64,000 nt of DNA from Carcharhinus longimanus (taxonomy: Eukaryota). Below are positions 30,001 through 36,000 of this stretch, one piece after another (positions within the stretch are counted from its first letter, which is position 1; each line of letters opens with the position of its first letter). The position numbers were made by a program. The stretch is from NCBI GenBank assembly GCA_030264375.1, contig JASCQW010000160.1:26400204-26464203 (forward strand). The letters are read 5' to 3'.

Positions 30001-33000
30001 CTCTTATCTATATTTTGTTAGCTTCAGAGTTAACTATTCCTATGCTGTCATTGCCAGATTCTCATCTTCCTTTCTCCATAAACTTGAGCTTTTCAAAAAC
30101 TCTGCTACCAAGTCCCATTCAACCACCATCCATGTGCTCACTGACCTACATTGCCTCCCAATCTATCAATCCCTTGGTGTTAAAACTCTCATCTCTATAC
30201 TCAAATTGCNNNNNNNNNNCATATCCCAGAAACCCTCTCCAACATGACTACCCATCAATAACTGCATTGTGTGCCCCCCAGTCCCCTTACACCAGCAGTA
30301 GTAGCCAACCTGACGCCATCAAGACCCTAAGTACTGGAATTCCCTCCCTAAACCTTTTCTCTCTCTCTCATTTAATGGATAGTTCTAAAATCTGCCTATT
30401 TGTTCAAGCTTTTCACCACCCATTCAACTATTTTTCCTATTTCTGCCTGATCACGCACCAGTGCTATTCTATAGGACATTTAACTTCATTAAAGGCACTA
30501 AGTAAATGCAAGTTATTGTTGTTCTGTCTATCTGAAAGAATATTTTTTAAACTCCTTCAGAAGTTGCAATAATTAATTCATTATATGGTTGCGTTAGCTT
30601 ACAGTATTAAAAGGAAACTTTTTTTTCTTTATTCATTCATGAGACATGGGCCTCGCTGGCTGGCCAGCATTTGTTGCCTACTCCTAGTTGCCCTTGAACT
30701 GAGTGGCTTGTGAGGCCATTTCAGAGGGCAGTTGAATCAACCACATTGCTGTAGCTCTGGAGTCACATGTAGGCCAGACCAGGTAAGGGCAGCAGATTGC
30801 CTTCCCTAAAAAAAATTAATGAACCAGATGGTTGTTTATGACAATTGGCAATGGTTTCATGGTCATCGACAGATTCTTAATTCCAGATTTTTTTTTAATT
30901 GAATTCAAACTCCACCATCTGCCTTGGTGGGATTCAAACCCAAATCCCCAGAATATTAGCTGAGTTTCTGGATCAATAATCTAGCGATAATACCACTAGG
31001 CCATCGGCTCCCCAAACCTTTTAAAGCATATAATGGCTGGCACAGACACCATGGGCCAAAAGTCCTCTTTCCGTGCTGTAAAACTTGACGACTCATTAAT
31101 TTTACTGTGGGAAATTTCTCAAAACACATCTACCAAATGGAACAATGCACCAGTTTATCTTGTGACATGTGATTCCACTCTGACGGAAATCAGATTTATT
31201 ACAATAAATGGGCAAAATTGACATTTCCTGACACTAAAAAAATCCTGCACTCTCATGAAACAGTAAGACATTAGCTGTGTATTAAAATAGGAGGATGTCT
31301 GCTCATCAGTATCAAAAACTGCCAACATTCAACAGATAATAACATTTGAATGAGCCATTTACCAGGTTACCACCACCTGTGAAATTGTGTTTCAACAATA
31401 AGCTGCCTTCACAACCAAAGGGGCAAGTAAGAAAAAAATTGGAAAATAATTTTGAAATTAAGATTCCCTTATTGACTTAGTGCAACTAAATCATACAGAT
31501 CAGGTTTAATACTCTGACTGCACAAGCTTAATTAATCTATCTGCTCTGATGTAGGGTCATCCAGACTCAAAAGTTAGCTCTATTCTCTCTCCACAGATAC
31601 TAACAGACTTGCAGACTTTCCAGCATTTTCTAACTTTGTTTTAGATTCCAGCATCTTTGGTAATTTGCTTTTATCTTAAAAAAAACAGGGTGGCACTGCT
31701 GCCTCACAGCACGAGGGACACAGGTTTGATCCCGGCTTGGATCGCTACCTGTGTGGAGTTCGCACATTCTCCGCGTGACTGCATGGGTTTCTTCCGGGTG
31801 CTCCGATTTCCTCCCACAGTCTGAAAGATGTGCTGGTTAGGTGCATTGGCCATGCTTAATTCTCCCTCACTGTACCCAAACAGGTGTTGGAGTGTACGAC
31901 TAGGACATTTTCACAGTAACTTCATTGCAATGTTAATGTAAGCCTATTTGTGACTAATCATACTTTCATTAATTCTTGCCAGGACATTAATGAAACCATA
32001 TTACAGTCAGGGGCAACATGTTCAGGTCCAAAAGAGGGGGAAAGCAATCAGGTTTCTTTGCATTTGATATTTTAATTCTACTGCCAGGCACTCAATGTCC
32101 AAGGCATGACCTTGCCCTTATAATGACGACTTCAACTGCCAATCGCAATAAAAANNNNNNNNNNNNNNNNNNNNNNNNNNNNNNNNNNNNNNNNNNNNNN
32201 NNNNNNNNNNNNNNNNNNNNNNNNNNNNNNNNNNNNNNNNNNNNNNNNNNNNNNNNNNNNNNNNNNNNNNNNNNNNNNNNNNNNNNNNNNNNNNNNNNNN
32301 NNNNNNNNNNNNNNNNNNNNNNNNNNNNNNNNNNNNNNNNNNNNNNNNNNNNNNNNNNNNNNNNNNNNNNNNNNNNNNNNNNNNNNNNNNNNNNNNNNNN
32401 NNNNNNNNNNNNNNNNNNNNNNNNNNNNNNNNNNNNNNNNNNNNNNNNNNNNNNNNNNNNNNNNNNNNNNNNNNNNNNNNNNNNNNNNATTTCAATGGGC
32501 CTCATTAAGCTGGAACAAGAAAATATTGCACCTGCGCGACCTCAGCACCCAGAACTAAGACCAATGATCTAAAAATGAGTAAAAATTAAATTGCACGTGT
32601 CGTGTTTTCTTCTAACCTCCAGGTTGTGGGTTTTGGTGTCTGCAATTAAAGTATAGAACGCTATTTTCAGAGCTGGTGTGTCTATCTGTCTGATCTCCAG
32701 AGGTGTGAGGCTAAAGCAGCACAAAGCTGTTGCTTATCATCCTTCATTCCCCTCTGGACAGCTCTGATTTGCAGAGTGTCTGCCTACCTGACAAATAATT
32801 CAAAAGTTTGGCCACTCACGTTAGAGATCCCCGGAGCTTTTGACCATTTTCACCCGAAGCCGCTGAGTGTGTTTTAATTGTCAGCTTCTCCTTTTTATAC
32901 AGAAAAAAAGAGATAAAAGCGGAATTGTTTCTAGCCGGCATCAGTGGCGCAGTGCTACCACCCCCCGCCCCGCCAGCGTGCCTGTCACCATGGCAACCCC

Positions 33001-36000
33001 GAAGGGGCGGGATCAAGGAACCTCCGTTCGGATGCTCACTGCGCATGCACTGATGCCGACCGTGTCCTGAACATTGTCCAATCTCCGCATGCGTAGCACG
33101 CGACCTGAACCTATTCGAATCCACGTATCTGTAGTGCCCGACCTGAACACTGTTGGAACTTTGCGCGCGCGGCCTCCTTGGCCGTTCACTACCCCATTTC
33201 AAGCTTCCCCCATTCCAGAGCATCTAATAGCTTCACCGTGAAGCTGTTATCTTTTTGTGCAGCTGGTGGAAAATCTCACTGCGTGTGTGTGTCTGTGTGT
33301 ACTTATGGATGTATATTTCTCTATCGCCACTGCTGCTAAAATGGACACTAACGTTAAAGATGGCCACAGGATTGGCGGTGCGCTGTGGGTTACGCATGCG
33401 CGGTCCAATGGCCAATGTCAGCAAATAGGCCGAGGCAAGTGACGTGTAAGCGCGTGCGCAGTCTCTCTTACCGTTACCAGAAACTGCGCATGTGCAGTCT
33501 GAGAATCGTTACCAGAAATTACGCCTGTGCGGTCTGAGAATCGTTATCGGAGACTGCGCATGTGCGGTCTGAGAAGTGTTGCCGGCAGTTGAGCATGCGT
33601 ATATGGAGCTGCCGGTCATTGTGCACGTGCGGGGTGTCCTCTGTGAGGAAATGAGTTCCAGCAACTTTGTGTAAATTATTACCATCTTTCGGAGGAAATT
33701 TGGTTTTTTTCACTATATAATTGTTTGAAAGATTAGTACGACTGATATTATTTGTTGTGAAAGCATTTAATTATTCTCAGCAATCAATTGGTTGATTTCT
33801 GATCTGTGAGCCCATTTCCATTTACTGTGTTTTTAAATTCTTGCCTTCCAGCAAATCCTCACTGACAGTGTCGATGATTGAGGCTATGCGAAGGTTTTAA
33901 ATGTAGCTTTTGTTTGTATTTGTCTTGAATAGGGTTGCTGTTTCCCGACCCCTAACTGCCTACTCCTGGATTAAACTTGGTGTTTTGAGACTTCTTACCG
34001 TTATTACCCCAGTTCAACGCCAGTATCTTCACATCATGTTCCTGGATTATCAGCTTTATCTGTCTACAATATGGTGCAGGGCCAGGAGCTGTTTTCCTGC
34101 CCTATTTTACTTTTCTGTTTCTACACAGGACCTTGTGTGTCCCTCATCCCCTTTTTCCTGTCTGATCGATTTGCAGCCTTCTTGATGGCTACTTCACTGG
34201 ATACAACTGCGCAATTCCTCATCACCTTCGCAACCCTAGAGTTTGCAAGTTATGAAGATTTCCGCAGTAAATTGGAGATGTTTCAGCAGGTAGCATGGTA
34301 GGCATATGCCTTGTGTTGGTTTGCTGTTAATGCTGCTGTTCAAATGTCAGTTATTATTGTGTTTACAGGAAACAGTAACCTATTCCAGGAAGTAAGCACT
34401 AATACGCTCAAGAGGGAGAACAAGAGACAGTGAATTCAAGTTCCCAGCCACTTCAACATGCCTCAGTGAAGCTGCACTGTGTCCACTATCGGCAGGCATG
34501 CATTCGTTCCACTGGAGTGAGACCTAATCGGAGGTGGGTGCTATTGATGAGTTGCCTGTAGTGCAGTATGTTGCCCCTGTGATGCTCTGCTTTGATTTGA
34601 GAAAACATTTGTTGAATGTTGGTAATAACAGCAGCTGAGGCAGCAGAACCCAATGGCTTTTGGAGGCATGTTTCTCAATATACGAATGTTGATAATGAGG
34701 GACTGGTTTCTGAAGGGAGACATCAGCTAGATGTTGACAGGATGGCTATTATTGGTATGCCTTTGGTTAAGTTAAGCTTTACAGCATCAATATATCTTCA
34801 TGTTGAGATGCGATACTCACAAAACCACTTGCATGCAACCCCTCCCTGGCAGACAAACTGTTGCCATAGGATGCAGCAGTGAATGGGATTCCATGCCCAT
34901 TAGAGGTGGCTGGCAGTAGCATTGACACTTCTTCACTTCTAAGCAAGTATGCAAAGTGCCTTAAGTAATGGCGCTATTGAATTTTGAATGGGATATGTGG
35001 CAAGTCCTTGCTCTAAGTCACCCATTTAATGTTACTTCATTTTAAAGTTGCTTAATCTCTAGTGTTTGCTTCCTCAGTTGAAGTTGTCAAAAGCCTTGTG
35101 AAAAATGTTTCCGTAAAATGGTCAGTGAACTAAGAATTTGTACATGCCTGTATGTGTAGCCACTTCAAATTTGAATGGCTCAAGTTAAAATTAACCCAGC
35201 AGACTAGCTTTAAAAGTTTAAGTTTATTTATTAATCACAAGTAGGCTTACATTTGCACTACAATGAAGTTACTGTGAAAATCTCCTAGTTGCCACATTCA
35301 AGCGCTGAGGGAGAATGAGCCATGCACTTAACCAGCATGTCTTTTGGACTGTGGGAGGAAACTGGAGCACCCAGAGGAAACCCATGCAGACATGGGGTGA
35401 ACGTGCAAAGTCTGCACAGACAGTGATCCTGGCTGGGAATTGAACTTGGGTCTCTGGCACTCTGAGGCAACAGTGTTAACTGTGTGACACAAGCAATAAG
35501 TAGCCTGAAAATGGGGAGGCGGGGGGGGTTCCTCCGTCACGCAGTTGTGTTTCCAATTGGTTATATCATGAGGCTTGGGTGCATTGTGACCTTAGCATAT
35601 CTGTGGCAAGACTGTGAGTGATATCTGATTGGAGAGCATGTGTATGGAAGATTTCAGCAATTGTCCTGAAACCATGATTGGAACATTAGAATAGCCACTA
35701 TGGGTTGTGAACAATGAACTCAGGGAGAGCTTGAAGAGTGAATAAACTGAAGGTTCAGCAGTTTAAAAGGAGCACTAAGCATTAAATGGATTTTGGTTAT
35801 GTTGTGGAATAGATGAGGCAAGTAAAGAACATGCGTTTTTGTAGACCACATCACGATCACATCTCAACCATCTCTACAGTGAGAGTCTGTATCCTGAGGA
35901 ACACAGCTCTGAGTTGTTGGTCTGAGCTGCTGATACTGCAATATGTTCAGAAAGTTTGTTCCTGTCCAGAAACAGAGTTCAAGTGTCTCCTCATGGCCGA

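What the first reader, a model, noticed from the sequence alone, without database searches (positions are those of the whole stretch)
32800..33650. One CpG island apparently drives both upstream DIXDC1-direction exons (minus) and the MULE transposase (plus)
Seen: the only CpG island in the window has a strong minus-strand donor at its left edge (AAC|gtgagt, 32820) and the MULE exons begin about 530 bp to its right. It is packed with NRF1-like, CCAAT and GC-box motifs. Known: NRF1 and CCAAT motifs are enriched at bidirectional promoters. Inference: the right half (about 33320-33650) may be the transposon's own 5' end fused to, or donating, a distal DIXDC1 promoter about 29.5 kb upstream of the canonical first exon.
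Basis: partly seen in the sequence, partly recalled or inferred. Interest (0 to 1): 0.65.

Follow-up and report, generated by a model that had tools for sequence, protein, structure and literature searches.

The report
CpG island beside dead transposase-derived gene
A shark-like genome stretch has one CpG-island promoter that probably starts the DIXDC1 gene leftwards and has, facing rightwards, the decayed remains of a transposase-derived (ZSWIM3-like) gene; this is an ordinary head-to-head arrangement, not a working transposase sharing a promoter.

Summary
The CpG island is real: 32801-33650, GC 0.53, CpG o/e 0.96, against 0.27 for the window. It has two lobes, with CpG peaks at 32889-33188 and 33389-33588.

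The left lobe has GC boxes, a minus-strand TATAAA and the donor AAC|GTGAGT at 32820. About 29.46 kb further on, a 20-codon ATG exon (3357-3298, minus) follows an AG acceptor directly. I take this for the first coding exon of DIXDC1, from recall only; no tool confirmed it.

The right lobe is six ~35-bp tandem units with degenerate NRF1-like cores.

From 34185 the plus strand matches all 558 residues of a Carcharodon protein that has a ZSWIM3_N domain. Its full-length horn-shark relatives carry the MULE core. The window copy lacks that core and has 8 frameshifts and 3 in-frame stops. It is therefore a dead, core-deleted MULE-derived gene, not a transposase.

No terminal inverted repeats and no second copy were found. 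The idea that the transposon donated the promoter is unsupported but not excluded. No eukaryotic genome or expression data were available.

Verdict: an ordinary head-to-head CpG-island arrangement, of low interest.

The parts
32801..33650 (.). CpG island (whole)
   Evidence: GC 0.53, CpG o/e 0.96 and 57 CpG, against a window o/e of 0.27.
32889..33188 (.). Left lobe of the island. It holds GC boxes at 32965 and 33005, one CCAAT at 33078 and an NRF1-like site at 33041.
   Evidence: 25 CpG in 300 bp.
32894..32899 (-). TATAAA on the minus strand, about 75 bp upstream of the donor
   Evidence: Found as TTTATA on the plus strand at 32894 and read in the sequence. Its position fits a core promoter; the hexamer alone is not significant.
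32820..32900 (-). Inferred non-coding first exon in the DIXDC1 direction. Its 3' end is fixed by the donor AAC|GTGAGT (last exon base 32820). Its 5' end is unknown and the coordinate given is nominal.
   Evidence: The donor matches 8 of 9 consensus positions and is the only one at >=8/9 in 32489-33300 on the minus strand. The 135-codon ORF through the island (32816-33223, minus) is of low complexity and has no Pfam hit.
33280..33300 (.). Short TG-rich microsatellite in the CpG-poor trough between the two lobes
   Evidence: Sequence. Its only match to the downstream region is another TG repeat.
33405..33416 (+). Two adjacent CCAAT boxes at the start of the right lobe
   Evidence: Positions 33405 and 33412.
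33437..33646 (.). Right lobe: about six tandem units of ~35 bp, each with a (Y)GCGCAYGYGC-like core, i.e. degenerate NRF1-like palindromes
   Evidence: TRF finds period 35, 3.0-3.2 copies and 76-85% matches. The repeat finder families D1 and D2. Six-unit alignment A2.
34185..37476 (+). Decayed, core-deleted ZSWIM3-like (MULE-family-derived) gene. It matches residues 1-558 of Carcharodon LOC121269736 in three exon-like pieces separated by GT..AG gaps. Weaker similarity to the tail of the 855-aa horn-shark relative runs on to 37852.
   Evidence: phmmer hit P0001, E 1.6e-5. tblastn. Frameshift-aware alignment: 350 of 519 aligned residues identical, 8 frameshifts and 3 in-frame stops in total. The MULE core of P0002 has no counterpart.
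3298..3357 (-). 20-codon ATG exon directly after an AG acceptor and followed by GTAAAT. Taken to be the first coding exon of full-length DIXDC1.
   Evidence: The identity comes from recall only: there was no hit, and no CH-domain hit in 1-3400.
54500..54751 (-). Last exon of a DUF4578 (PF15147) gene, which I recall as the C11orf52 family, the usual upstream neighbour of DIXDC1
   Evidence: Pfam E 4.8e-14, 53.6 bits against a cut-off of 27, profile positions 74-126 of 126.
32155..32488 (.). Run of N (334 bases) inside the inferred first intron; left as it is

Best explanation
The island is a two-lobed CpG-island promoter region lying between two head-to-head transcription units.

The left lobe (GC boxes, a minus-strand TATAAA, then the donor at 32820) is most likely the promoter and short non-coding first exon of the full-length DIXDC1 transcript. 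That exon would be spliced over about 29.46 kb onto the acceptor that directly precedes the ATG exon at 3357.

The right lobe (two CCAAT boxes and six ~35-bp units with degenerate NRF1-like palindromes) faces a ZSWIM3-like gene of MULE-transposase ancestry. In this genome that gene has lost its catalytic core and its reading frame.

Shown: the island, its two lobes, the donor, the acceptor-plus-ATG exon, and the homology, core deletion and decay of the plus-strand gene.

Inferred: that the minus-strand exon belongs to DIXDC1; that either lobe fires; and that CpGs survive in the right lobe because it lies within the unmethylated promoter domain, or still gives divergent non-coding transcription, rather than because a transposase is expressed.

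The simplest history is that a MULE-family element landed next to an existing open promoter, as MULEs are reported to do in plants, and then decayed there.
For: Island and lobes.

Donor: the only >=8/9 minus-strand donor in 32489-33300 lies at the island edge. The TATAAA and GC boxes lie just upstream of it in the minus-strand sense.

DIXDC1 side: the ATG exon at 3357-3298 follows an AG acceptor directly. The 1-kb bins around it have CpG o/e of only 0.22-0.31. The only substantial island between the DUF4578 exon (54.5 kb) and that ATG is this one. Mouse DIXDC1 is reported to use multiple promoters (PMC9932814, passage seen). C11ORF52, CRYAB, HSPB2 and DIXDC1 are listed together in one chicken chromosome-24 region (PMC12046372, passage).

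Plus-strand gene: P0001 found at E 1.6e-5 and named as a Carcharodon protein. It has ZSWIM3_N at E 1.9e-10. The window matches its residues 1-558, with 350 of 519 aligned residues identical, 8 frameshifts and 3 stops. A reversed-protein control scored 42 and 65, against 194 and 1036.

Motifs and MULE behaviour: NRF1-like enrichment. NRF-1 and NFY motifs are reported as over-represented in human bidirectional promoters (PMC3082894, passage). MULEs are reported to insert at the 5' ends of genes (PMC5861414, passages).
Against: No transcript, TSS or methylation data could be consulted, so neither direction is shown to be transcribed.

The DIXDC1 name rests on a 20-residue exon recognised from memory. 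The search for homologous proteins scored none of its 27 candidates at E<=0.1. PDB gave nothing. No CH domain was found in 1-3400.

A donor of this quality is expected about 0.3 times by chance in 800 bp.

No plus-strand donor at >=7/9 lies between 33300 and 34184, although an acceptor-like ...tttgcag ends at 34176. The 5' structure of the plus-strand unit is therefore unresolved.

The distance from the minus-strand donor to the plus-strand ATG is 1365 bp, so a TSS spacing under 1 kb is not shown.

CCAAT and GC boxes are not above chance. The MULE literature cited concerns plants.
Confidence: 0.5

Rival explanations
1. Promoter donated by the transposon. On this view the right lobe, about 33320-33650, is the 5' terminal or subterminal region of the MULE-family element. 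Its tandem repeats would be former transposase-binding or promoter repeats, which now form part of, or created, the distal DIXDC1 promoter.
For: The island is bimodal, and a CpG-poor trough with a microsatellite separates the lobes. The right lobe is a tandem array. Subterminal repeats are common at DNA-transposon ends (my own knowledge). MuDR TIRs act as promoters (PMC5861414, passages). The protein family behaves like a transposon family: four horn-shark proteins lie on four different contigs, and at least three different internal deletions are seen.
Against: No inverted-repeat partner exists. There were 0 pairs of >=25 nt in 32489-47000, and blastn of 32489-34300 against 37300-46000 gave only a TG repeat. 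There is no second copy of the island or of the gene in the window. The left lobe has its own CpG peak, GC boxes, TATAAA and donor, so the DIXDC1-side unit does not need the right lobe. About 535 bp, ending in an acceptor-like site, separate the array from the ATG.
Confidence: 0.15
2. The island serves only the plus-strand unit, or is an orphan island. The minus-strand donor is then a chance match, and DIXDC1 starts elsewhere, for example in unsequenced DNA.
For: Donors of this quality occur 25 times on the minus strand of the window. A 334-base run of N lies 330 bp beyond the donor. DIXDC1 identity and the splice are unverified.
Against: The ATG exon needs an upstream exon, because an acceptor directly precedes the ATG. 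This is the only substantial island in the roughly 51 kb between it and the neighbouring gene. TATAAA, GC boxes and the donor are in the right order and spacing on the minus strand. The plus-strand gene is dead, which alone would not keep an island CpG-rich.
Confidence: 0.2
3. The minus-strand exon belongs to a separate divergent non-coding transcript of the ZSWIM3-like unit's promoter, not to DIXDC1.
For: Divergent transcription is common at CpG-island promoters (my own knowledge). No intermediate exons or junctions could be checked.
Against: The same points as above: the DIXDC1 ATG exon lacks a promoter of its own.
Confidence: 0.1

Closest known systems
Bidirectional (head-to-head) CpG-island promoters of vertebrates
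   Same: One CpG island lies between two oppositely oriented units and carries NRF1-like sites and CCAAT boxes. NRF-1 and NFY motifs are reported as over-represented in human bidirectional promoters (PMC3082894, passage).
   Different: TSS positions are unknown. The distance from the minus-strand donor to the plus-strand ATG is 1365 bp. One partner is a pseudogene. CCAAT and GC boxes are not above chance.
ZSWIM1/ZSWIM3-type genes (MULE-transposase-derived vertebrate genes)
   Same: The nearest protein, P0001, has the ZSWIM3_N domain and a weak SWIM match. [quoted passage not shown]
   Different: The window copy and P0001 lack the RNaseH-like/MULE core that P0002, P0004 and P0005 keep. The window copy is broken by 8 frameshifts and 3 stops. 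The family is multi-copy with several different deletion forms in sharks, which is more like a transposon family than a single conserved host gene.
Mutator-like elements (MULEs), including the MuDR promoter-in-TIR arrangement and insertion near the 5' ends of genes
   Same: Full-length relatives carry PF10551. The location next to a gene's promoter matches the insertion preference reported in plants (PMC5861414, passages).
   Different: No TIRs were found. No target-site duplication can be called. There is no catalytic core, and the gene has introns.
DIXDC1 (Ccd1) multi-promoter gene structure in mouse
   Same: An upstream promoter for the full-length, CH-domain isoform is expected (PMC9932814, passage).
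   Different: Only the 20-codon first coding exon lies in the window. The identity comes from recall and from the neighbouring gene, not from a tool hit.

Membership tests
Bidirectional CpG-island promoter | Two transcription units head to head on opposite strands | tested here: inconclusive
   The plus-strand unit is shown by homology. The minus-strand unit is inferred from a donor and from an ATG exon that needs an upstream exon. There are no transcripts.
Bidirectional CpG-island promoter | Transcription start sites less than 1 kb apart | not testable with these tools
   No 5'-end data. The island is 850 bp long. The distance from the donor to the opposite ATG is 1365 bp.
Bidirectional CpG-island promoter | CpG island spanning the shared region | tested here: met
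   with two lobes shown.
Bidirectional CpG-island promoter | Enrichment of NRF1, NFY (CCAAT), GABP or YY1 motifs | tested here: inconclusive
   NRF1-like: 5 observed against 0.09 expected, reached in 0 of 1000 shuffles, but none is perfect and three lie in tandem units. CCAAT was reached in 113 of 1000 shuffles and GC box in 90 of 1000. No CGGAAG or CTTCCG was found.
Mutator-like element (MULE) | Transposase with the MULE/DDE core (PF10551) | tested here: not met
   0 of 474 segments >=50 aa hit it. About 240 residues of P0002's core have no counterpart in the window. The core is present in the relatives P0002, P0004 and P0005.
Mutator-like element (MULE) | Long terminal inverted repeats | tested here: not met
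   Old or truncated ends could escape these searches.
Mutator-like element (MULE) | Target-site duplication of 8-11 bp | not testable with these tools
   The element's ends are undefined.
Mutator-like element (MULE) | Multiple dispersed copies | tested here: inconclusive
   The window holds one copy. Four horn-shark proteins lie on four contigs. The genome of the window's own species could not be searched.
ZSWIM1/3-type protein | ZSWIM3_N (FAR1/WRKY-GCM1-like) N-terminal domain | tested here: inconclusive
   P0001 scores E 1.9e-10. The window's own segments give no Pfam hit even at E<=1. They do align to that part of P0001: residues 1-36 with 28 identical, and residues 39-97 with 43 of 58 identical.
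ZSWIM1/3-type protein | SWIM zinc finger | tested here: inconclusive
   P0001 scores only E 0.096, 12.7 bits, against a cut-off of 19.6. The reading frame of the window copy is disrupted.
DIXDC1 | CH domain, coiled coils and C-terminal DIX domain | tested here: not met
   No CH or DIX hit anywhere in the window. Those exons would lie beyond the left end. Only the 20-codon first exon is present, and it was recognised by recall.

The most novel reading that the evidence does not exclude
The core-deleted ZSWIM3-like unit may be an old, orthologous resident of the DIXDC1 promoter in sharks. In great white shark it would be kept as an intact 558-residue protein with only the DNA-binding parts of the transposase, while it is dead in the species of this window. 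Its former terminal repeats, the NRF1-like 35-bp array, would now make up half of DIXDC1's CpG-island promoter. That would be a transposon-derived half-promoter with a lineage-specific domesticated partner.
Probability: 0.1. Interest if true: 0.55.

Novelty: new member of a known kind. Interest (0 to 1): 0.22.

Why it matters
If the arrangement is what it seems, it is one more CpG-island promoter with a transposon-derived neighbour, useful mainly for annotation. It gives DIXDC1 in this genome a non-coding first exon about 29.5 kb upstream. It also shows that the gene to the right should be annotated as a pseudogene and not as a transposase.

It would matter more only under two conditions. First, comparison of shark genomes would have to show that the tandem NRF1-like array arrived with the element. 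Second, the core-less protein would have to be conserved beside DIXDC1. That would give a dated example of a DNA transposon supplying promoter sequence to a Wnt-pathway gene.

Tried and rejected
Pfam scans. I scanned every stop-to-stop segment >=50 aa (474 segments). I also scanned 60 plus-strand segments covering 33907-38365 at E<=1 and 58 minus-strand segments. None hit a MULE, FAR1, SWIM, ZSWIM, CH or DIX family. The sub-threshold hits to virus-named families are each below the curated cut-off and I take them as chance: Rhv (E 0.006), NP1-WLL (E 0.0056) and Baculo_E25 (E 0.0091).

Protein searches that found nothing. A word-indexed search with the 52-aa piece 34403-34558 had no candidates. 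The ESM Atlas gave a best score of 0.81, which is uninformative. A word-indexed search with the DIXDC1-exon segment had 27 candidates, none at E<=0.1. PDB searches gave 0 hits.

Other scans. Rfam over the whole window gave 0 families. The bacterial-type promoter/terminator scan is not meaningful for this DNA.

The 135-codon minus-strand ORF through the island is rejected as coding. It is of low complexity and has no family. By my reading of the two splice sites, its frame would stop right after the junction with the ATG exon.

TIR and second-copy searches found nothing.

A literature search for 'DUF4578' found 0 papers. I therefore found nothing in print that links that Pfam family to C11orf52; the link is my recall.

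Each piece was searched or aligned on its own, so the joined-model test was left out.

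
Full report
**What kind of DNA this is.** The window has GC 0.42 and an overall CpG o/e of 0.27, with twelve runs of N. Its best protein matches are to shark reference proteins from Carcharodon, Heterodontus and Chiloscyllium. By eye, its repeats look like cartilaginous-fish SINEs (recall). The N runs were left untouched.

**The observation.**
- The island is real: 32801-33650, GC 0.53, o/e 0.96, 57 CpG. Four other stretches of 200-250 bp barely pass the usual thresholds, so it is the only substantial island.
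- It has two lobes: 25 CpG in 32889-33188, only 6 in 33189-33388 (which holds a TG-rich microsatellite), and 18 in 33389-33588.
- The minus-strand donor AAC|GTGAGT, last exon base 32820, matches 8 of 9 consensus positions. It is the only donor of that quality between 32489 and 33300. But 25 such sites exist on the minus strand of the window, so the donor alone is weak evidence.
- NRF1-like sites are enriched. Five lie within one mismatch of the palindrome and none is perfect. 0.09 are expected from dinucleotide shuffles of the island itself, and 0 of 1000 shuffles reached five. Five of the six window-wide matches fall in the island. Three of the five sit in tandem units and are not independent.
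- CCAAT (4 observed, 1.86 expected, reached in 113 of 1000 shuffles) and GC boxes (2 observed, 0.47 expected, 90 of 1000) are present but not above chance.

**The left lobe and DIXDC1.** Read on the minus strand, the order is: GC boxes (32965, 33005), a TATAAA (32899-32894), then the donor at 32820.
- 29,463 bases further on, at 3357-3298, lies a 20-codon exon. It starts with ATG directly after an AG acceptor and ends at GTAAAT. A pyrimidine tract lies upstream, and by my reading of the printed context there is no other AG in the last ~45 bases before the acceptor.
- That exon has no CpG island of its own; o/e in the surrounding 1-kb bins is 0.22-0.31. It therefore needs an upstream exon and promoter.
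- I recognise its peptide as the N-terminus of full-length DIXDC1 only from memory. The word-indexed search scored none of 27 candidates at E<=0.1. PDB gave nothing. No CH or DIX domain is found in the window. The remaining exons must lie beyond the left end.
- Indirect support comes from the last exon of a DUF4578 gene at 54500-54751 on the minus strand (E 4.8e-14). I recall this as the C11orf52 family. A paper on chickens lists C11ORF52, CRYAB, HSPB2 and DIXDC1 in one chromosome-24 region (PMC12046372, passage only). A search for 'DUF4578' found no paper.
- Mouse DIXDC1 is described as using multiple promoters (PMC9932814, passages only).
- The 135-codon minus-strand ORF through the island is of low complexity and has no family. 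I treat it as non-coding.

**The right lobe.** It begins with two CCAAT boxes (33405, 33412) and continues as about six units of ~35 bp (33437-33646). Each unit is centred on a (Y)GCGCAYGYGC-like core. The units are 76-85% alike.

**The plus-strand gene.** No Pfam family of the MULE, FAR1, SWIM or ZSWIM kind is hit by any of the 474 segments >=50 aa. None is hit by 60 plus-strand segments across 33907-38365, even at E<=1.
- An exhaustive phmmer search with 33975-34298 found one protein, P0001 (558 aa, E 1.6e-5, 76% identity over its first 37 residues).
- P0001 is 'uncharacterized protein LOC121269736 isoform X1 [Carcharodon carcharias]'. It has a ZSWIM3_N domain (E 1.9e-10), DUF5575_N and a sub-threshold SWIM match, but no MULE core.
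- Six of 7771 candidates passed E<=1e-3, P0001 itself among them. The 855-aa horn-shark 'ZSWIM3-like' protein P0002 carries PF10551 (MULE), PF21056 and PF17738. Three more horn-shark proteins lie on other contigs, and one comes from Chiloscyllium.
- The alignment shows that P0001 lacks about 241 residues of P0002 that hold the core. P0003 and P0006 have other, different internal deletions. That pattern fits a transposon family with deletion derivatives.
- I searched and aligned exon by exon and never joined exons. The window matches P0001 over residues 1-558 in three pieces (34185-34292, 34377-34555, 36179-37476). GT..AG gaps separate the pieces, read from the sequence contexts shown. 350 of 519 aligned residues are identical. 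There are 8 frameshifts and 3 in-frame stops in total.
- The counts are stable for frameshift penalties 12-22 and fall to 6 frameshifts and 3 stops at penalty 30. A reversed-protein control scores 42 and 65, against 194 and 1036.
- The window follows P0001 across the core deletion, and P0002's core has no counterpart. The tail of P0002 matches weakly on to 37852.
- The plus-strand neighbour is therefore a dead, core-deleted, MULE-derived gene, not a transposase.

**The 5' structure of the plus-strand unit is unresolved.** A good acceptor-like site (...tttgcag) ends at 34176, eight bases before the ATG. But no donor at >=7/9 lies between 33300 and 34184.

**Is the right lobe the transposon's end?** I could test this only within the window.
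- No inverted pairs >=25 nt were found in 32489-47000.
- blastn of 32489-34300 against 37300-46000 gave only a TG repeat.
- The island has no other copy in the window; only a ~50-bp fragment at 33967-34018 recurs near 17.9-18.3 kb. No second copy of the gene is present.
- The idea is thus unsupported, but an old element with eroded ends would look the same.
- Plant work reports that MuDR TIRs are promoters and that MULEs insert preferentially at the 5' ends of genes and in GC-rich DNA (PMC5861414, passages only). The second gives a simpler account: the element landed next to an existing open promoter.

**Comparison with known systems.** The layout works like a vertebrate head-to-head CpG-island promoter. 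[quoted passage not shown] Membership is not established, because start sites and transcription are unknown. As a MULE the locus fails two tested defining features, the core and the TIRs. As a ZSWIM1/3-type gene it has only the N-terminal part, and that part is broken. A review-type paper on ZSWIM genes (PMC10236294, passages only) ties the SWIM domain to MuDR transposases.

**What stayed unchecked.**
- Expression and methylation data were not available.
- Paper supplements were closed and not needed.

**Verdict.** There is a two-lobed CpG island with a plausible non-coding first exon of DIXDC1 on one side and the remains of a MULE-derived ZSWIM3-like gene on the other. It is an ordinary arrangement of low interest, unless comparative data show that the tandem NRF1-like array came with the element.

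Noticed in passing
window 46057-48789 (-): Degraded non-LTR retroelement, the most virus-like stretch I saw. Pieces hit zf-RVT (E 1.1e-6), RVT_1 (E 3.5e-6 and 6.3e-6, both below the Pfam cut-off) and the ZCCHC3 second RNA-binding domain (E 1e-7). The hits lie in four separate stop-to-stop segments, so the reading frames are broken several times. Described only.
   Followed up: no
window 9054-9356 (-), 41599-41936 (-), 63162-63629 (+): Further scraps of reverse transcriptase (RVT_1, E 6e-5 to 5e-3, all below the cut-off). At 63402-63629 there is an ALKBH8_N-type domain (E 4.6e-8) next to an RVT_1 piece.
   Followed up: no
window 54500-54751 (-): Clean last exon of a DUF4578 (PF15147) gene, E 4.8e-14. 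I recall this as the C11orf52 family, the usual upstream neighbour of DIXDC1. Its other exons were not located.
   Followed up: partly
window 59201-59400: A 200-bp stretch with GC 0.57 and CpG o/e 0.61 (10 CpG). It lies upstream, in the minus-strand sense, of the DUF4578 exon and could be that gene's small promoter island.
   Followed up: no
window 32985-32999: A near-palindrome around CCATGG between the two GC boxes looks like an RFX X-box. The motif is recalled and was not tested statistically (sequence).
   Followed up: no
window 33225-33249: An 11-12-bp perfect-stem inverted repeat in the CpG-poor trough between the lobes.
   Followed up: no
window 33967-34018 vs 17860-17912 (-) and 18302-18335 (+): A ~50-bp repeat fragment between the island and the plus-strand ATG recurs on both sides of the N run at 18038-18198.
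   Followed up: no
window 35300-35480 and 31700-31870: Interspersed repeats that by eye look like tRNA-derived SINEs of cartilaginous fishes. One sits in the second intron of the ZSWIM3-like relic. The 31651-31900 copy explains that small CpG-rich stretch (the identification is recall).
   Followed up: no
proteins P0001, P0003, P0006 (relatives, not in the window): Three different internal deletions remove the catalytic core but keep the N-terminal DNA-binding part and the C-terminal part. The Carcharodon form keeps an open 558-residue frame. This raises the question of whether core-less forms are used by the host.
   Followed up: partly
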